Source of the DNA: the human T2T-CHM13v2.0 reference genome, Homo sapiens
Strand: one strand, 5' to 3'
NCBI RefSeq assembly: GCF_009914755.1
Contig: NC_060942.1
DNA: 64,000 nt
Shown here: positions 55,828 through 63,512 of the stretch, in pieces
Layout: every line of letters starts with the position of its first letter
Position numbering within the stretch: the stretch's first letter is position 1
Notes under the pieces: generated by a model
What the model saw: only the letters and a program-made list of their open reading frames with translations
Told to the model about the DNA's origin: nothing
Database searches by the model: none
Program-made: the position numbers and the translations under genes

Positions 55828-55935
55828 TGAATTGATTGTTCCTCTTTGCCAATGGACAGCTCAGCATTTGAAATGCATGAAGATGCAACACAGAATAGTT
55901 TGTCTATGGGGACGATAAACACTATCTCTAGAATG
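55828..55935 (+). pseudogene. CUPIN1P: Cupin pseudogene, first coding exon (ATG 55852; MDSSAFEMHEDATQNSLSMGTINTISRM)
   Basis: Polypyrimidine acceptor TTTTCAG|55828, CCAATGG start context, donor ATG|GTAAGG, phase 0. Symbol from recall of the locus. Confidence 0.7.
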
Positions 55936-56117
55936 GTAAGGTGGGGATTTATATCTTGTGATTTGTTCCCTCCAAGACCTTACACAGAGCTCAGGCAAGA
56001 ACCCCTCTTTAGATCAGTTCTTCTTAAGTGACCCTCTTCAGAAAGATAGCGTCTCCTCTTATGAACATTTCTTGATTTGCCCCCTCTCATAAACTCTAAA
56101 CTCACACCCATTTAGCT

Positions 56118-57320
<1,203 letters not shown>

Positions 57321-57682
57321 TTAATACAATAACAAATATTGTTTTGTGAAACTTTTGTTTCAGTAGTGTGTGTGTATTTACGTGTGTGTGTGTTTGTGCA
57401 TGTATATCTGTACATGTACTGGATCACAGGGGGAAATGTATTTCTTGATGTGAATGTAGTTAAAAAAAAAAAAAGTTTGAGAAACACTGATCAAGGAAGT
57501 GTTTAATCACTTAATCCAGTGATTAAGGAAGAAATACTAATGTCTAGCAAAGCATTACTCTTAGATATATAAAGTTATATGCTATCATTTTCTTTTAAAA
57601 ATGTAAATGTGACCTTACAGTTGTGTGTAAATGTAAACTTTCCTTTGAGAATGCTGGATCATGAGTATTACATTTTAATGAT

Positions 57683-57810: not shown

Positions 57811-58325
57811 GAATTTAATGATCCTGAAATGATATGCAGTGATAGTACTTTGATTTAGTGGAATAACAGAGGAATCAGGAGAAATTCTTTCTACACCTAT
57901 AATTACAGATAATAGTGTGGCTTTCCACAAGTCATTGCTCCACCCTGGGCTTCAATTTCCTCATCAGGAAGATGAGACATAGAAGCTAAGCTGGAATCTT
58001 TAGTATTCTTTACAATGCAGCATTTCGGTGTTTATATCTTGAGGCTAGTTCCCCTTAAGACCCTTAACACAGAGCTCAGGAAAAACTCTTTAAGCCAGCT
58101 ATCATCTTAAGAAATGTAGTACCCCCTGCTCTGATCATGTCCTGATTTAACGTGAAATAATTAAAAGATACATTTTAAGTATACTTTAAAAAATAGCTCT
58201 TTTCATCATGTTTGTCAGTGAATTTTAGTTGAAGTTAGTTTAAAGAAAAATTTAAGAACCGAGAAAGGAGGCAATATTTCTAATGTGTCTTAAGTAGAGA
58301 ATAATGGCTTTCTAATTTTCCCTAG

Positions 58326-58551
58326 GCAAAGAACAGGCTGTGGTCACGGGTGAACATTTTCCTGGTGTGTCTCTTGGCCTGCATCATTACCACAGCAGTA
58401 GGAGTGCTCATGCTCTCCTTGGTCTATATTAGCAACTCATGCAGACATTCATTTCAAACCTGAAGCCTGGCCTCTGCAAACAATGACTCCCATAGTATCA
58501 AAAGCTATTGATCCAGAATTTCAGTTTCTTAATCACTTACCTAAATCTAAA
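58326..58551 (+). pseudogene. CUPIN1P: Cupin pseudogene exon with CLLAC-motif transmembrane segment; frameshifted
   Basis: CCTAG|AKNRLWSRVNIFLVCLLACIITTAVGVLMLSLVYISN; 226 nt (3n+1); the other frame ends AIDPEFQFLNHLPKSK|GTATGA. Confidence 0.85.
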
Positions 58552-59040
58552 GTATGAATTACACACATTAGGAAAAATAATTATTCTTAATGGCAACTTT
58601 AAAACCACCTTCTCATTGTATGTTTACTAAGCTTTATTCTCTATTGGAAGGGATGAACTGTGAGCCAGGATGAAGGAAGGTGAGAGATAGAGAAGAGGGG
58701 AGAGTTGCGTTGTTGACCTCAGACAGAAATGTTCTTCAGTAGACAGTTCCATGTCTGACTAGAGTAGAGAATTGCACGTGGACAAATGGAAATTCCTCTA
58801 TTCTCTTGCCACCCTAGGTGTCTCTTTAAATGTCTAACAGGGTCTAGACTGATAGCACTGCGTGTGTTACTATTGCCATTCCTGGACTCGTACAGACCTA
58901 TTCCTCCTCTTCCTTTCTGGGATTCCAAAACTCACCTCACCACCATTGCCTTTTCCCTTTTGCCTCCTTCTTACTCTATAGGCCCCATGCTCTTAGGAGG
59001 TGGCCTCCATGCTTATGGTGGCTTGTTTATGGTTTTCCGG

Positions 59041-59247
59041 GTGTTTGACTTCCTTGATGGTACAATCCAGTGGGCCCGGTACAGGAACAATGTCAAAGAC
59101 TATCTCAGCAATGAAGAAGAGGCCTTTGGCACCAGCTTGAACAGTCAGAGATCACAAATGACTCTGGGGACACTTAGGATAAAAAGCAATGGCCTCCAGG
59201 CCCTTCACTGGCACTTCAACGCCAGTGAACATGACTGTCTTGCTCAG
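59041..59247 (+). pseudogene. CUPIN1P: Cupin pseudogene exon carrying cupin motif 1 (HWHFNASE)
   Basis: 69 open codons VFDFLDGTIQW...GLQALHWHFNASEHDCLAQ|GTATAA; the expected phase-0 acceptor reads TTTTCCGG rather than AG. Confidence 0.85.
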
Positions 59248-61341
59248 GTATAACTAGTTTGCCCACACTCTCCTCTTAAGAATCTATGTTTTTTGTCCTG
59301 AGAGTAGTATTTTAGTTGTTACAAAATCTGCTTAACTAAGAGATAGACAAACATTCAGGCTTTGGCTATATATTCAACTAGATTAGTTAGCAGTGCCTAT
59401 AAGCATTAGTCTGTTTGTTTAAATTATTTTTGGCATCACTTTGAACTCTTTTCTTCAGTATGAAATCATTTTTCACACACTATTGTTAAAATAAGATCAC
59501 TGTTTGGTCCTCTGAGCCAAAGCTAAAACCGGCAGCTCTGATCTAATGATCAAAGAAACAGCAGCTTTTCTCTAAAGAATATAACAGCAACCAGAATAAC
59601 AAAGTAGTTTGCTGTGTTCAGTCAGTCTGGAGTCTCTAAGATCAGGCCAATTGGATGCCCTTTTGTGGTTCAGACTTTTCAGAATGTTCTTGAAGTCTAG
59701 TGAAATAGAGATAGCTGGAGGTAAAATGAGTGTCCTTACTTGAATTTCAAATAATTCATTAATTCCCTAAAGTATTTATTGGCTTCCTTCTGCATTCCAG
59801 ACACTGGGGAAGCAGTAGTGACTAAGCCCTCACAGAACTTTCAGAGTTTAGTCTTTCCCTGGTGATCTAGTTAAAGACGCATAGCCAATTTTACGTGATG
59901 TTTTTGTTGTAGTTAATAAAGCCTTCTTTTTTATTCTTGGACAATGCGTTCAATTTTAGAATTTACAACAGAGAGAGAGATTAGAGTTTCCTTTATATGA
60001 GACCAAACTATTCTTTTTTTTCTTATAAGAGAACAGGAAGTCAGAGAGATTAGTTGGGTTTTCTAAAGATAAACCGTAGTCACTGGATTCACTGGGACAA
60101 AGCTCATGTTTTCTGACTTCTTGTCTTTTTCCACATAGACAAAATATGTGAAAGAGGGTAATCTCTAAAACATTCATTTTCATGGTCTTGACTGAGCAGT
60201 GGCAGAGCAATAGGAAAAAGAAAAGGCAGCTCAGTGGACTTTCCTGGGGGGAGACCCCTAAAAAGAAACTGCAAGCTAGGGAAATTCACCTGGAGCCTTC
60301 TCTAGTTGAAAATAGGCCCTGGGACCTAGCTCAGCCTGAGAAGGTTGTTCACACAATCCTGAGAGTTCATAATGTGAGCTATATGGAGTTGAATATTCTC
60401 TAGATACCCAGAAAATTGTGGGATTACTGTTTCTCACAATCAGGGTAAGAAACCAAGCAACAGGATGTGAAGAAGTCCATCTATTCCAGTCGTCCAGGGA
60501 TATTGCTTCTGCTTCTGAGTGTCTTCGTGGAAGCTTTGGAAGGGACCCTGAGAGTACGGTGGGCAAGCTGACTGGTGTGCCTGGCTTCACCACAAAGATC
60601 ACATTGACTCCCATGCTATCTCTGCTTTGTATCTGGAGTAATTGGTGCCCTGATATGAATAGGTACACATTGCTGCTGCTCCCTGCTTGTGGATGAAGAG
60701 AGAGCTCTTTAGAGGGCCACCTTTCCCCTGTATATTTAATACCCATCTGGATTCGAGTTATACATGTCTATGTAGACAGAACGAAAACTTCTTTTTCATC
60801 CGCCCCTGTGGCTGCTCCACTATGTGACCATGAGTCTCTGGTAAAACAGAAATAATGGTATCTTCTCTGCCTACCTCACGGGGTAATACTGAGGAACAGA
60901 TTAGAGAATGAGAAAGTATAGAATTTTATAGAAGCAGAATCAAAATATGGGTTAGTATGAATAAAAAGTATAGACTTTGGAGCCAGACTGCTTAAGTCCA
61001 AATCTTGGCTTTTCCATTGATTAGCTGAGTAATCTTGGGAAAATATGTTCTCTCCATAGTTTTCTTTTTTGTAAAATAGGGATAATAATATTACCATGCT
61101 TCATAGGATTGATGTAAGGAATAATCAAGCTGAATCAAGTAAAGTGATCACATGAATACCTGACATATATTAAAGGCACTACATGTTAGCTGTTATTGTT
61201 AAAATTGTATGCACACTTTTTCTTGTCTGGAAAGCACACACATATCTGTATGTATACATACACACAAACGCATACACTTGTACCTGTACAACCAACTAAG
61301 AACATGCACACATCCTCCCCAAGTGGCTTCAGTCTTTTTAA

Positions 61342-61917: not shown

Positions 61918-62139
61918 GGAACAGCATAGATTGGGGTGGTTGATGATGATGGTGAAGTAGTTACACGCACAGTGTTATAGCTGGCCAAGTAATCTTCTTC
62001 CCTAAAAATATACTATACTGGATAAAGAATGTGGGGAATGAAGATTGTTTTTTCTTGCTCTTCTTTTCCACACATGATGAACTTCAGACTTTGAATGTTG
62101 ATGATGTATTTTTTTCTGTAACTGAGACATTGCTTCCAG
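61918..62139 (+). pseudogene. CUPIN1P: Cupin pseudogene exon carrying cupin motif 2; nonsense and frameshift lesions
   Basis: TTTTAG|GTA*IGVVDDDGEVV/THSVIAGQVIFFPKNILYWIKNVGNEDCFFLLFFSTHDELQTLNVDDVFF; donor CAG|GTAACT. Confidence 0.87.
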
Positions 62140-62153
62140 GTAACTTAAAGTAG

Positions 62154-62235: not shown

Positions 62236-63512
62236 ACACAAAGAGAGCATGAGTATTTGTGTTTCTGGGGCAGCAGTCAGCTAAGTCCAGGGAAAATTGA
62301 CTAATAGGTATATATAATAAAAGTTGGATAATGGGCTCAAAAGTACATCTTATATTCTTCCTAATGACAAAATCTTGTTGAAATTGAGTTGTTTTTTATT
62401 TCCTTTAATTTTAGTCTTCCATAGGAAACTATAATGTATTGGCAGAAAGATTATGATATAATTAACAGAAAACTTGCTATAATTTGTATCTCTCAAGAGT
62501 CATAAACTCACCCATTCTTTCTATGGGAAGAAATTTGCTGCAGATAATGCAATCATGTTTTCAATGGTTGATTGAGGCTTCAATGTGGATTTAGGAACTA
62601 AACTTCTCTGGTATAGATAATTATATTAATGAAAAGACTGGATGCCTGTGAGAGTTCTCTTTTCATTTGTTTTTAAATGCTCAACTGGTTATATTGTATC
62701 ATTGCCATTTCTTAGCTTGTGAGGACCTAGGTAAATTCCTCAACCAACTTAGATTTGAATTCCATCATCTGTAAGATGGGGAGAATAATGCCACTGACAT
62801 TATAAGGTTGTTGTGAGGAAGAAGTGACATAATAAATGTAAAAGGCATAGAAAATTGCATGTTCTTGGTGAGGGCTGCATAAATGTTAATTATTATGATG
62901 ATTGTATGAATTGCTAAGTAGGATGTTGGCTAATGGGGTTTCTTTTTCCTTTTTCTTTTGTAAGCATCAAAATGCCCTTACCTTTAGTGCACTCAGAATT
63001 TGTAACAGAATTATAATGGATTATGACAGCCACATTTTCGTTTTAATGCAAATGAAATGCACTATGTGTTAAGTGGATGTGGAAAGGTAATTTATCTCCA
63101 AACTTTTTTTTGGCGGGGGGGGGGGGGGGGGTGATTTACTTCTTAATGCAAAAAGAAGCAAATGGGAGGAATTTTTCGTTTTGCTTCAGTTGTTAATAAC
63201 ATAAAATGACTCAGTCCTAATGGCTTTCTGGGCACAGTTGCTACAGAGAAAACCATGAAGATCCTGCAAGGTAGTTTCTGAGTTTAATGAGACAGAAAGA
63301 TTCAAGATGTGCATGAAAAGAGGCTAAGAATATTTCAGAAGTGGTAAAGATGTTATCACCATGATGGAAGATCTGGAATGCTTGCTTAGGTTTTCAGTTT
63401 TGCATCCTCAGGTAATGCATAGTGAAAGGTGCCGCCCTTGGCAGAGTGTGAAATAACAGATTGCCTCTCAGTGCAATGTGAATGTGGGTAGCTGGGGAGA
63501 CATGGAGCATCA

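What the first reader, a model, noticed from the sequence alone, without database searches (positions are those of the whole stretch)
58326..58440. DYNAP-type CLLAC membrane anchor fused to the cupin: a lost type II ectoenzyme?
Seen: WSRVNIFLVCLLACIITTAVGVLMLSLVY, a ~24-residue hydrophobic helix ~35 aa from the start Met, preceded by basic residues (KNR). Established: the CLLAC motif defines a chordate domain found in DYNAP (C18orf26), which maps nearby on 18q21.2. Inference: the ancestral product had a short cytosolic N-terminus, a signal-anchor and a luminal or extracellular cupin. DYNAP may be a tandem duplicate that kept the anchor and lost the enzyme domain, which would explain the origin of a poorly understood gene.
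Basis: partly seen in the sequence, partly recalled or inferred. Interest (0 to 1): 0.75.

Follow-up and report, generated by a model that had tools for sequence, protein, structure and literature searches.

The report
Membrane anchor of dead cupin gene
This stretch is the still-readable membrane-anchor exon of CUPIN1P, a broken human gene whose intact versions in other land vertebrates tether an oxalate-decarboxylase-like enzyme to the outer face of membranes; the neighbouring DYNAP genes reuse the same anchor.

Summary
Window 58326-58463 (+) reads AKNRLWSRVNIFLVCLLACIITTAVGVLMLSLVY..., and it matches Pfam CLLAC (PF15675) at 52.2 bits against a cut-off of 25. It is exon 2 of the annotated unitary pseudogene CUPIN1P, joined in phase 0 to a 28-codon exon 1.

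Intact orthologues of about 470 aa (mammals including a lemur, birds, reptiles, amphibians) have a short N-terminus, the CLLAC helix, a stalk and a bicupin. All eight metal ligands are invariant. The closest sequences and folds are MncA and oxalate decarboxylase OxdC. DYNAP, which carries the same anchor, is a type II protein by experiment (PMC8329785). The "lost type II ectoenzyme" reading therefore holds.

The human copy is thoroughly dead, with frameshifts, stops, a lost splice acceptor and two lost metal ligands.

The DYNAP-origin idea is only partly supported. The genome holds four CLLAC exons, all within 183 kb on one strand, with aligned phase-0 acceptors. Homology is confined to the 30-residue anchor. 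No cupin relics lie near DYNAP. CLLAC-only proteins were seen only in therian mammals, which favours a CUPIN1-to-DYNAP direction.

The architecture is already in public databases; nothing relevant turned up in the papers searched.

The parts
55852..55935 (+). CUPIN1P exon 1: start codon plus 28 codons (MDSSAFEMHEDATQNSLSMGTINTISRM), the cytosolic N-terminus. Donor GTAAGG at 55936, phase 0.
   Evidence: sequence. (tblastn with lemur CUPIN1 P0003: 22 of 38 identical over the aligned stretch, which runs past the exon end into the intron)..
58326..58551 (+). CUPIN1P exon 2: juxtamembrane basic residues, the CLLAC signal-anchor and the stalk. Acceptor AG at 58324-58325 (phase 0); donor GTATGA at 58552.
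   Evidence: Orthologues read ...EKKRQWSL..FLVCLLAC...SLVY..NSQPHS..DPKFQFLNHLPKSK|VFEF. The human sequence matches in two frames (58329-58451 and 58438-58554).
58341..58427 (+). CLLAC domain proper (WSRVNIFLVCLLACIITTAVGVLMLSLVY): the transmembrane helix. It is intact in human.
   Evidence: PF15675, 52.2 bits, E 4.4e-14. E 3.5e-10 genome-wide; helix 36-65 in the lemur orthologue model.
58437..58463 (+). Frameshift directly behind the helix. There is a net deficit of 8 nt against the length of the lemur protein (NNSQPHSD), and the resulting in-frame TGA is at 58461-58463.
   Evidence: The deficit is inferred from a protein alignment only; no lemur DNA was available.
59039..59247 (+). Exon 3 (59041-59247, first cupin motif ...LHWHFNASEH). 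The expected acceptor AG reads GG at 59039-59040, behind a pyrimidine tract. Donor GT at 59248.
   Evidence: sequence. (orthologues start this exon with VFEF; the whale model P0077 reads ...FQ|VFEF); 59 of 70 identical to lemur.
61918..62139 (+). Exon 4 (second motif of the N-terminal cupin). TAG at 61927-61929 stands where orthologues have Trp179. There is a 1-nt deficit near 61965. Asn194 is Ser, so the conserved sequon is lost. Metal ligand His209 is Tyr (NILYWIKN).
   Evidence: (Cupin_1, E 7.3e-7). The exon end at 62139 (GT at 62140) is my reading and was not checked against orthologous DNA.
62917..63086 (+). Exon carrying the first motif of the C-terminal cupin. It has an 8-nt surplus at 63007-63014. 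TGA at 63024-63026 stands where orthologues have Arg359. Metal ligand His364 is Arg.
   Evidence: The 5' exon boundary was not determined. Orthologue residues 254-325 found no match in the window. The remaining exons lie beyond the window (chr18:54624439-54627719) and carry more stops.

Best explanation
Window 58326-58551 is exon 2 of CUPIN1P, a unitary pseudogene. Its first 34 codons still encode an intact CLLAC-type transmembrane helix.

In the intact gene (CUPIN1 of other tetrapods, about 470 aa) this helix is an uncleaved signal-anchor. The roughly 35-residue basic N-terminus stays in the cytosol. The helix spans the membrane. A roughly 40-residue stalk and a two-domain cupin (bicupin) lie in the lumen or outside the cell, giving type II topology.

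The bicupin keeps both 3-His/1-Glu metal sites and is closest to the manganese proteins MncA and oxalate decarboxylase OxdC. The protein was most likely a Mn-dependent ectoenzyme or Golgi-luminal enzyme acting on oxalate or a similar small carboxylate. The substrate is inferred, not shown.

In human the gene is dead, and the anchor exon is a neutral relic preserved no better than the other exons.

The three DYNAP-type genes or copies 119-183 kb downstream, on the same strand, carry a homologous anchor exon with the same phase-0 acceptor. They most likely took it from the CUPIN1 lineage by tandem duplication in early mammals, before the marsupial-placental split. They joined it to unrelated cytosolic exons and a Thr/Ser-rich mucin tail. 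Whether the duplicated unit was the whole gene or only the anchor exon remains open.
For: Identity of the exon:
- Pfam CLLAC at 52.2 bits.
- Exon-by-exon match to lemur CUPIN1.
- HGNC/VGNC orthology is stated in PMC8574622 (passage read).

Architecture:
- 68 of 78 relatives carry PF15675 plus PF00190. They come from eutherians, marsupials, platypus, birds, lizards, frogs, a caecilian and a newt.
- All 28 non-mammal rows in the anchor survey carry cupin domains (my count).

Topology:
- DYNAP is type II with its C-terminus outside the cell (PMC8329785; PMC4540312).
- K+R is higher on the N-flank in 18 of 22 orthologues, with 2 ties and 2 reversed.
- The sequon N194-V-T is present in 21 of 22.
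- The AlphaFold model has mean pLDDT 89.2: residues 1-31 disordered, helix 36-65, bicupin from about residue 90.

Enzyme likeness:
- H162, H164, E169, H209, H362, H364, E369 and H407 are invariant in 22 orthologues, as is R159; R359 is at 90% or more.
- PDB profile hits: OxdC at E 9.3e-21, Sll1358/MncA at 6.1e-17, globulins at 1e-9, germin at 9e-5.
- Foldseek: MncA at E 2.4e-30 (TM 0.82) and OxdC at 6.5e-30.

Death in human.

Link to DYNAP:
- 4 of 4 genomic CLLAC hits sit in one 183-kb cluster on the + strand.
- The acceptors align and are phase 0.
- Anchor profiles match at E 4.2e-21 with 63% identity.
- Every CLLAC-only protein with an organism name is a therian mammal, including the bilby and the tammar wallaby.
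- In the anchor tree the DYNAP-type rows form one clade (96/90). That clade sits with amniote CUPIN1, apart from amphibian CUPIN1 (87/93).
Against: - No enzyme activity, metal content, localisation or topology of any CUPIN1 has been measured. Nothing on it turned up in the papers searched.
- The orthologue proteins are mostly automatic gene models.
- In the HMM alignment, the equivalent of OxdC's lid acid (Glu162; that number is recalled, though PDB titles name an E162A mutant) is not clearly conserved.
- The N-terminal parts and stalks of CUPIN1 and DYNAP-type proteins show no homology, and no cupin relic lies near the DYNAP-type anchors. Nothing beyond a 90-bp exon ties the genes together.
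- The anchor tree rests on 32 columns. 27 of its 49 inner branches are unresolved, and it was rooted on divergent sequences that are not monophyletic in it.
- Absence of CLLAC-only proteins outside therians comes from word-seeded searches. 120 of 136 hits were listed, so this is weak negative evidence.
- One divergent bicupin (P0199) has a DYNAP-like anchor. This suggests a route through a full-length paralogue rather than directly from CUPIN1.
Confidence: 0.8

Rival explanations
1. DYNAP-type genes descend from a full-length tandem paralogue of CUPIN1, not from the anchor exon alone. That paralogue first lost its metal ligands and gained a mucin tail, and later lost the bicupin exons.
For: - The representative search with the CUPIN1 profile found a separate clade of six proteins (P0196, P0198, P0199, P0201, P0205, P0206). 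The clade has 98 SH-aLRT support in the bicupin tree.
- Four of the six have CLLAC-like anchors. All have degenerate metal motifs (HWN, NWN, AWT). P0198 and P0199 have C-terminal Thr-rich tails.
- P0199's juxtamembrane segment and anchor (..ENCCRCWEPWKTFLAC..) resemble horse DYNAP (..ENCCNNWSLWKFFLAC..).
- P0199 scores 39.6 bits on a DYNAP-type HMM against 20.7 on a CUPIN1 HMM. The other seven divergent proteins score higher on the CUPIN1 HMM.
- P0199 falls inside the DYNAP-type clade of the anchor tree.
Against: - This rests on one protein from an unnamed source, and its taxon is unknown (the atlas searches returned only clusters labelled Chordata, not the protein's own taxon). It could be a gene-model artefact or long-branch attraction (its end branch is 1.96).
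- The other three anchors of this clade do not group with DYNAP.
- No second bicupin relic exists in the human genome at the sensitivity reached (one search ran with a stricter first look).
- In DYNAP-type genes the mucin tail lies in the same exon as the anchor, not behind a cupin.
Confidence: 0.25
2. The direction is the reverse. A DYNAP-like anchor gene is the older one, and CUPIN1 captured its anchor exon.
For: Exon shuffling can go either way. Phase-0 boundaries on the anchor exon's 5' side, and on its 3' side in CUPIN1, would allow it.
Against: - The anchor-plus-bicupin form is present in amphibians, lizards, turtles, birds, platypus, marsupials and eutherians.
- CLLAC-only proteins were seen only in therian mammals.
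- DYNAP-type anchors nest among amniote CUPIN1 anchors.
Confidence: 0.04
3. The resemblance between the CUPIN1P and DYNAP helices is convergence or a chance likeness between hydrophobic segments.
For: Transmembrane helices have biased composition and can give spurious matches.
Against: - 63% identity over 30 columns, hhalign E 4.2e-21.
- Only 4 hits in 3.1 Gb, all clustered on one strand.
- The acceptor sites align.
- 0 of 14 control genomes match.
Confidence: 0.01
4. The human exon is not a mere relic. Exons 1 and 2 still encode a 73-residue type II microprotein (28 + 45 codons, stop at 58461-58463), a minimal DYNAP-like anchor.
For: - The start codon, the exon-1 donor, the exon-2 acceptor and the frame through the helix are all intact.
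- A database ORF (P0001, from a 2681-nt contig) matches the intron 2/exon 3 read-through. This suggests the locus is transcribed in human or a close relative.
Against: - Identity to lemur is 30 of 41 in the anchor part, against 30 of 39 (stalk), 59 of 70 (exon 3) and 46 of 62 (exon 4). There is no extra conservation.
- The stop lies 88 nt upstream of the exon-2 donor, so a spliced transcript would be a target of nonsense-mediated decay (inference).
- No expression or peptide evidence was examined.
Confidence: 0.04

Closest known systems
CUPIN1 (cupin superfamily member 1) of non-anthropoid mammals and other tetrapods, e.g. cat P0020 (470 aa) and lemur P0003 (472 aa)
   Same: Orthologous exon by exon. 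Same start (MDxSAFEMHEDA), same CLLAC helix, stalk and bicupin. Orthology to human CUPIN1P is stated by HGNC/VGNC curators (PMC8574622).
   Different: The human copy has frameshifts, at least four premature stops, a GG where the exon-3 acceptor should be, two metal ligands replaced, and about 70 residues without a match.
DYNAP / dynAP (dynactin-associated protein, C18orf26) and its paralogues LOC124908007 and the copy at chr18:54770108
   Same: The CLLAC anchor is homologous (E 4.2e-21, 63% identity). The phase-0 acceptor sits at the aligned position. Same strand and chromosomal cluster. Type II orientation is shown for DYNAP.
   Different: DYNAP-type proteins have about 90-115 cytosolic residues from two further exons, with no detectable likeness to CUPIN1 exon 1. 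Their anchor exon runs on into a Thr/Ser-rich tail and the stop codon, instead of splicing to cupin exons. They were seen in therian mammals only.
Bacterial Mn bicupins: Bacillus subtilis oxalate decarboxylase OxdC (1j58, 5vg3) and Synechocystis MncA/Sll1358 (2vqa)
   Same: Two-cupin fold (Foldseek E 2.4e-30 to 8e-29, TM 0.74-0.82 by target length). Profile E 9.3e-21. HxH..E plus H ligands in both domains, and an Arg three residues before the first His (R-x-x-H-x-H), are conserved.
   Different: 16-20% identity. CUPIN1 has a eukaryotic N-terminal signal-anchor and stalk, a conserved N-glycosylation sequon and three invariant ectodomain cysteines. Its lid segment is shorter and has no clear SENS-type motif. 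Its activity is unknown.
Plant germins (oxalate oxidase) and 11S/7S seed globulins
   Same: Cupin_1 fold. Germins are secreted Mn enzymes; globulins are bicupins.
   Different: The matches are much weaker (E 1e-9 for globulins, 9e-5 for germin). Germins are monocupins. By recalled knowledge, globulins lack the metal ligands.

Membership tests
Pfam PF15675 CLLAC-motif containing domain | HMM score at or above the gathering cut-off (25 bits) | tested here: met
   52.2 bits, E 4.4e-14, profile positions 2-30 of 30. In the genome-wide six-frame search: 51.6 bits, E 3.5e-10.
Pfam PF15675 CLLAC-motif containing domain | C-L-L-A-C motif inside a single hydrophobic helix | tested here: met
   FLVCLLACIITTAVGVLMLSLVY. 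Helix 36-65 in the orthologue model.
CUPIN1 orthologue group (human member: pseudogene CUPIN1P) | Exon-by-exon collinear match to intact CUPIN1 at the annotated locus | tested here: met
   Lemur P0003 matches window 55852, 58326-58554, 59038-59247, 61918-62150 and 62917-63089, and then chr18:54624439-54627719, all on the + strand and in order. The hub's annotation gives CUPIN1P as 55852..67722.
CUPIN1 orthologue group (human member: pseudogene CUPIN1P) | Open reading frame and splice sites intact (functional member) | tested here: not met
   Frameshifts at about 58437, 61965 and 63007-63014. Stops at 61927 and 63024, with more beyond the window. GG in place of the acceptor at 59039-59040.
Type II (N-in, C-out) signal-anchor membrane proteins | One long uncleaved hydrophobic segment near the N-terminus, with more positive charge on the N-terminal flank | tested here: met
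   Hydrophobic run of about 25 residues. K+R is higher on the N-flank in 18 of 22 orthologues (2 ties, 2 reversed). The human flank is AKNRLWSR.
Type II (N-in, C-out) signal-anchor membrane proteins | C-terminal domain exposed to the lumen or exterior, shown by experiment | not testable with these tools
   Shown only for the paralogous anchor in DYNAP (FACS with a C-terminal antibody; PMC8329785, passages read). For CUPIN1 there is only indirect support: the sequon N194-V-T in 21 of 22, and three invariant ectodomain cysteines.
DYNAP (dynactin-associated protein) family | Long cytosolic N-terminal region of the MDRKxGKY... type, encoded by two exons | tested here: not met
   hhalign of the N-terminal parts gives E 0.25 with 1 aligned column. 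No DYNAP exon A- or B-like sequence was found in the window.
DYNAP (dynactin-associated protein) family | Anchor exon continues into a Thr/Ser-rich tail and the stop codon | tested here: not met
   In CUPIN1 the anchor exon ends in a donor and splices to cupin exons. The stalks show no homology (E 0.66).
Mn-dependent bicupins of the oxalate decarboxylase / MncA type | Two cupin barrels in one chain | tested here: met
   For orthologues: Cupin_1 and Cupin_2 domains are stored for 68 of 78. The model has pLDDT 89.2. Foldseek top hits are 2vqa, 5vg3 and 1j58.
Mn-dependent bicupins of the oxalate decarboxylase / MncA type | 3 His + 1 Glu metal ligands in both barrels | tested here: met
   Met in orthologues: H162, H164, E169, H209, H362, H364, E369 and H407 are invariant in 22. 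Not met in human, where H209 is Tyr and H364 is Arg.
Mn-dependent bicupins of the oxalate decarboxylase / MncA type | Substrate-polarising Arg before the HxH motif and a lid Glu (OxdC Arg92 and Glu162; the numbers are recalled, and PDB titles name R92A and E162A mutants) | tested here: inconclusive
   Arg: R159 is invariant and R359 is at 90% or more, and both align to the OxdC Arg in 'RELHWH'. Lid: CUPIN1 has HDELQT and G(D/N)QLQT where OxdC has SENST. The alignment carries a gap, so no firm equivalent can be named.
Mn-dependent bicupins of the oxalate decarboxylase / MncA type | Bound Mn and oxalate-degrading activity | not testable with these tools
   No experiment exists for any CUPIN1 in the papers searched.

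The most novel reading that the evidence does not exclude
Tetrapods other than anthropoid primates carry a so far unstudied Mn bicupin, held by the CLLAC anchor on the cell surface or in the Golgi lumen. It degrades oxalate or a related small carboxylate. That would contradict the usual statement (recalled, not checked here) that mammals have no oxalate-degrading enzyme. Humans lost this enzyme. The DYNAP family, including the oncogenic dynAP and a mucin with an open frame of at least 1160 codons, would be what remains of decayed tandem copies of this gene: orphaned anchors that grew mucin tails, with P0199-like proteins as the surviving intermediate.
Probability: 0.15. Interest if true: 0.8.

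Novelty: already known. Interest (0 to 1): 0.35.

Why it matters
For the human genome this is bookkeeping. The exon belongs to an annotated unitary pseudogene, and its CLLAC-plus-cupin architecture is already stored in Pfam-annotated protein records. NCBI even names bird and frog orthologues "dynactin-associated protein".

Two things are worth keeping:
- CUPIN1 is a strongly conserved vertebrate protein (59-90% identity from lemur to amphibians). It looks like a membrane-tethered oxalate-decarboxylase-type metalloenzyme, no paper in the searched library describes it, and humans lack it. If it does act on oxalate or a related acid, it bears on species differences in handling such metabolites and on the use of animal models.
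- It gives the poorly understood DYNAP genes a concrete origin. Their only conserved, family-defining part is an anchor exon shared with CUPIN1, present since before the marsupial-placental split. The near-invariance of this helix across paralogues (S35, F40, L41, C43, L45, A46, T50, T51 invariant in CUPIN1) suggests it does more than anchor. Possible roles are acylation of the two cysteines on the cytosolic side, oligomerisation or sorting; these are inferences.

Tried and rejected
1. My first exon model was wrong. It ended exon 2 right after LVY, started exon 3 at 58982 or 58997, and assumed a lost GT donor at 58429. Orthologue proteins and tblastn show that exon 2 runs to 58551 and exon 3 starts at 59041.
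2. The first structure job, on 22 close orthologues, gave mean pLDDT 51.1 and pTM 0.36. That is too poor for a fold search. It was replaced by an 86-row alignment that includes bacterial bicupins.
3. hhalign of the N-terminal cytosolic parts found nothing, and hhalign of the post-helix stalks found nothing. An apparent likeness seen by eye (FEMHEDA against NVEHSEN; SDIHF against SIVIQ) is therefore not supported.
4. I looked for cupin relics next to the DYNAP-type anchors and for CUPIN1 exon-1-like sequence there, searching the whole genome with lemur CUPIN1 and with P0198 and P0199. Only CUPIN1P exons and the anchors matched. One search ran with a stricter first look. After more than 100 My of neutral decay (my estimate) absence says little.
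5. The taxon of the divergent bicupin clade could not be found. The representative library has no names, and both atlas calls returned only the chordate CUPIN1 cluster and weaker rows.
6. Four "CUPIN1-like" representatives that I suspected to be fish (P0191, P0194, P0197, P0200) nest inside amphibian or bird CUPIN1. No protein that could be assigned to fish was found. P0203 is basal, and its origin is unknown.
It was repeated with a 45-residue first row.
8. Earlier findings of this scan were not open to the session.
9. Literature searches for CUPIN1P, CLLAC, CUPIN1/Gm36255, OxdC-like/bicupin and DYNAP+cupin gave one relevant paper, on HCOP nomenclature. Listings were inspected only as far as shown: 20 of 53 for CLLAC, 15 of 69 for CUPIN1.
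Full report
**What is in the sequence**

On the + strand a pyrimidine tract and cccTAG end at 58325. The frame from 58326 reads AKNRLWSRVNIFLVCLLACIITTAVGVLMLSLVYISNSCRHSFQT and stops at TGA 58461-58463. Upstream, ATG at 55852 opens 28 codons (MDSSAFEMHEDATQNSLSMGTINTISRM) that end at a GTAAGG donor at 55936. Both boundaries are phase 0, so the joined frame puts the Trp at residue 34 and the hydrophobic run about 38 residues from the Met.

Pfam-A gives one hit for the 45-residue translation: CLLAC (PF15675), E 4.4e-14, 52.2 bits against a cut-off of 25, covering 29 of the 30 profile positions.

A six-frame search of the whole 3.1-Gb assembly with the same model found 4 matches among 150 scored candidates. 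All are on contig 18, + strand, at 54618341 (this exon), 54737745, 54770108 and 54800942. None of the 14 control genomes matched.

**Which gene, and its true exon structure**

The hub annotation places the pseudogene CUPIN1P at 55852..67722. A search with the next exon's translation returned 78 proteins among 94 candidates. By their stored Pfam annotation, 68 of them carry CLLAC together with Cupin_1 in proteins of about 410-550 aa. They come from eutherians (a lemur, carnivores, rabbit, horse, camels, bats, aardvark, rodents, pig, ruminants), marsupials, platypus, birds, lizards, frogs, a caecilian and a newt.

Source names for these proteins are chaotic: "cupin superfamily member 1", "legumin J-like", "oxalate decarboxylase OxdC-like", "dynactin-associated protein", and "lung adenoma susceptibility protein 2 isoform" (the last is, by recall, the neighbouring gene C18orf54).

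HGNC/VGNC curators state that the CUPIN1 genes of horse, dog, cat and cow are orthologues of human CUPIN1P (PMC8574622, passage read).

The orthologue sequences corrected my first exon model. The lemur reads ...ISRM|EKKRQWSLVSIFLLCLLACTITTAVGVLILSLVYVNNSQPHSDIHFTPEAWPLQT...DPKFQFLNHLPNSK|VFEFAGGTIQWARY.... Human exon 2 therefore runs from 58326 to 58551 (donor GTATGA at 58552), and exon 3 starts at 59041.

**State of the human copy**

tblastn with the lemur protein and direct reading show the following:
- Exon 2 matches in two frames (58329-58451 and 58438-58554). This is a frameshift directly behind the helix, a net 8-nt deficit judged from the protein alignment.
- The exon-3 acceptor reads GG at 59039-59040.
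- Exon 4 has TAG at 61927-61929 where orthologues have Trp179, a 1-nt deficit near 61965, Asn194 changed to Ser, and metal ligand His209 changed to Tyr.
- The exon at 62917-63086 has an 8-nt surplus (63007-63014), TGA at 63024-63026 where orthologues have Arg359, and metal ligand His364 changed to Arg.
- Orthologue residues 254-325 find no match.
- The exons beyond the window carry further stops and a frameshift.

Identity to the lemur is 30 of 41 in the anchor part, 30 of 39 in the stalk, 59 of 70 in exon 3 and 46 of 62 in exon 4. The anchor is no better preserved than the rest, so it is a neutral relic.

No anthropoid primate appears among the intact proteins, while a lemur does. This suggests, but does not prove, a loss on the anthropoid stem.

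**What the intact protein is**

An alignment of 22 tetrapod orthologues is 59-90% identical to the lemur. It has these columns invariant:
- In the anchor: S35, F40, L41, C43, L45, A46, T50, T51, L60, V61.
- All eight canonical cupin metal ligands: H162, H164, E169, H209 and H362, H364, E369, H407.
- R159, three residues before the first His of the N-terminal barrel. Its C-terminal counterpart R359 is conserved at 90% or more.

A profile of this alignment against all PDB sequences hits B. subtilis oxalate decarboxylase OxdC best (E 9.3e-21, both domains). Next come Synechocystis Sll1358/MncA (6.1e-17), 11S globulins (about 1e-9) and germin oxalate oxidase (about 9e-5).

A first AlphaFold run on the 22 sequences was poor (pLDDT 51). 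With 86 rows including bacterial bicupins, the model reached pLDDT 89.2 and pTM 0.79. Residues 1-31 are disordered, a helix covers 36-65, the stalk has low confidence, and from about residue 90 there is a confident two-barrel domain. Foldseek against the PDB ranks MncA (E 2.4e-30, TM 0.82 by target length) and OxdC (6.5e-30) first, ahead of seed globulins.

The ectodomain is therefore a Mn-type bicupin of the oxalate decarboxylase/MncA kind. The lid acid of OxdC has no clear counterpart, and no activity is known. The substrate is an inference.

**Topology**

The helix is too long for a cleaved signal peptide and sits about 35 residues from the N-terminus. K+R is higher on the N-terminal flank in 18 of 22 orthologues, with 2 ties and 2 reversed. 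The sequon N194-V-T is present in 21 of 22. Three ectodomain cysteines are invariant.

For the paralogous anchor there is experimental evidence. dynAP is described as a type II single-pass protein of the Golgi and plasma membrane. Its C-terminal region was detected outside cells by flow cytometry with a C-terminal antibody, and its Thr/Ser-rich region is probably O-glycosylated (PMC8329785, passages read; PMC4540312, one passage).

Taken together, a cytosolic N-terminus and a luminal or extracellular bicupin is the well-supported reading. It has not been shown directly for CUPIN1.

**Relation to DYNAP**

The three other CLLAC exons are these:
- DYNAP's last exon: ...NDWSMWKVFLACLLACVIMTAIGVLIICLVNNKGSANSSIVIQ..., then a Thr/Ser-rich tail and the stop.
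- LOC124908007: the same pattern followed by an open frame of 1160 codons of Thr/Ser/Ala-rich tandem repeats.
- An unannotated copy at chr18:54770108, whose frame stops after 70 codons.

A DNA alignment of the four exons places the acceptor AG|G in the same column. Reading the DYNAP exons shows a 55-codon middle exon with phase 0 at both ends, and a phase-0 acceptor before the anchor exon, as in CUPIN1P.

Profile-profile comparison gives these results:
- E 4.2e-21 and 63% identity over the 30-residue anchor (59 CUPIN1 rows against 32 DYNAP-type rows).
- Nothing for the N-terminal cytosolic parts (59 against 20 rows, E 0.25, one aligned column).
- Nothing for the stalks (44 against 32 rows, E 0.66).

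Whole-genome searches with lemur CUPIN1 and with two divergent bicupins found cupin-like sequence only at CUPIN1P. What the genes share is thus one anchor exon and its upstream intron position.

**Direction and age**

A search with DYNAP's last exon gave 34 proteins. All but one unnamed fusion model are CLLAC-only, and every named one is from a placental mammal.

A profile of the four human anchors gave 136 hits, of which 120 were listed. By my count:
- 36 listed rows carry cupin domains as well, and 84 carry CLLAC only.
- All 28 non-mammal rows (birds, turtles, frogs) carry cupins.
- Every CLLAC-only row with an organism name is a mammal. These include elephant and aardvark and two marsupials, the bilby and the tammar wallaby.

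The marsupial proteins are true DYNAP-type. They have ...CTNPGVLGHS... in the N-terminal part, WSLWKIFLVCLLAC..., SIVIQLPQ after the helix, and a Thr-rich tail.

A tree of the anchor has few columns (32) and 27 of its 49 inner branches are unresolved. It puts all DYNAP-type rows in one clade (96/90). That clade sits with amniote CUPIN1 anchors, apart from amphibian ones (87/93), and is weakly sister to platypus CUPIN1 (84/75).

The simplest reading is that the anchor-plus-bicupin gene is the older form, at least as old as tetrapods. The DYNAP type arose from its lineage by tandem duplication before the marsupial-placental split and then multiplied.

**An unexplained lead**

The exhaustive representative search with the CUPIN1 profile gave 732 hits at E <= 0.001 and 36 at E <= 1e-30. 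Besides CUPIN1 clusters and bacterial bicupins, it found six divergent animal-type proteins. They form one clade in a bicupin tree (SH-aLRT 98), whose position relative to amphibian and amniote CUPIN1 is unresolved.

These proteins have degenerate metal motifs. Four of them have CLLAC-like anchors, scoring 18-27 bits on Pfam. Two have Thr-rich C-terminal tails.

One of them, P0199, has a juxtamembrane segment and anchor of the DYNAP type. It scores 39.6 bits on a DYNAP-type HMM against 20.7 on a CUPIN1 HMM, while the other seven divergent proteins score higher on the CUPIN1 HMM.

Its source organism could not be learned, so it remains a lead.

**Comparison with what is known, and verdict**

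The exon is a member of PF15675 and of the CUPIN1 orthologue group, as a dead member. It is not a DYNAP-family member, because the DYNAP N-terminal exons and mucin tail are absent. Its orthologues work like type II-anchored Mn bicupins.

The architecture is already stored in public protein annotation, and the gene is named. The searched literature holds only the nomenclature remark of PMC8574622, nothing relevant in the 20 of 53 listed rows for "CLLAC", and nothing linking DYNAP and cupins. The two dynAP papers I queried contain no occurrence of "ortholog", "homolog" or, in the one paper where that term was queried, "evolution".

I rate the feature itself as already known, and the interest as moderate to low. 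The part worth pursuing is an uncharacterised, strongly conserved, OxdC-like ectoenzyme that humans have lost, together with a concrete origin for the DYNAP anchor.

Noticed in passing
L002 (chr18:54736245-54739334), anchor at chr18:54737745; window-relative about 177745: LOC124908007 is a DYNAP-type gene. It has DYNAP-like exons A and B (chr18:54728581 and 54735759). Its CLLAC exon runs on into an open frame of 1160 codons of Thr/Ser/Ala-rich tandem repeats, so it is a type II-anchored giant mucin.
   Followed up: partly
L004 (chr18:54768608-54771694), and chr18:54781645-54781728: A third DYNAP-type anchor exon (DYSLWKIFLICLLSCVITAAIGVFIVCLV...) stops after 70 codons, and the Thr-rich sequence continues in another frame. 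It is probably an unannotated pseudogene. A separate fragment resembling DYNAP exon A, with a TAA inside, lies 11 kb further on.
   Followed up: partly
proteins P0196, P0198, P0199, P0201, P0205, P0206 (representative library, source unknown): This is a clade of animal-type bicupins with degenerate metal ligands. Some have CLLAC-like anchors and Thr-rich tails. P0199's anchor is of the DYNAP type. The taxon is unknown.
   Followed up: partly
window 58768-59253 (+): A 161-codon open frame runs from intron 2 through exon 3. A database ORF (P0001, 155 aa, from a 2681-nt contig of an unnamed source) matches it almost letter for letter. This hints that a retained-intron transcript of the pseudogene exists in human or a close relative.
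   Followed up: no
window 56348-57208 (-): A 286-codon open frame lies inside intron 1, within a stretch masked as repeat (56113-57322). By recall it looks like the C-terminal part of a LINE-1 ORF2. This was not tested.
   Followed up: no
proteins P0112 (elephant, 298 aa) and P0113 (Pyrenean desman, 354 aa): These gene models contain two CLLAC anchors each. They are most likely fusions of neighbouring tandem DYNAP-type genes, which shows that the cluster is multi-copy in other placentals too.
   Followed up: no
names: Orthologues of one gene are named 'dynactin-associated protein', 'legumin J-like', 'oxalate decarboxylase OxdC/OxdD-like', 'lung adenoma susceptibility protein 2 isoform', 'cyclic AMP-dependent transcription factor ATF-4' and 'cupin superfamily member 1'. 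The automatic names are misleading for this family.
   Followed up: no
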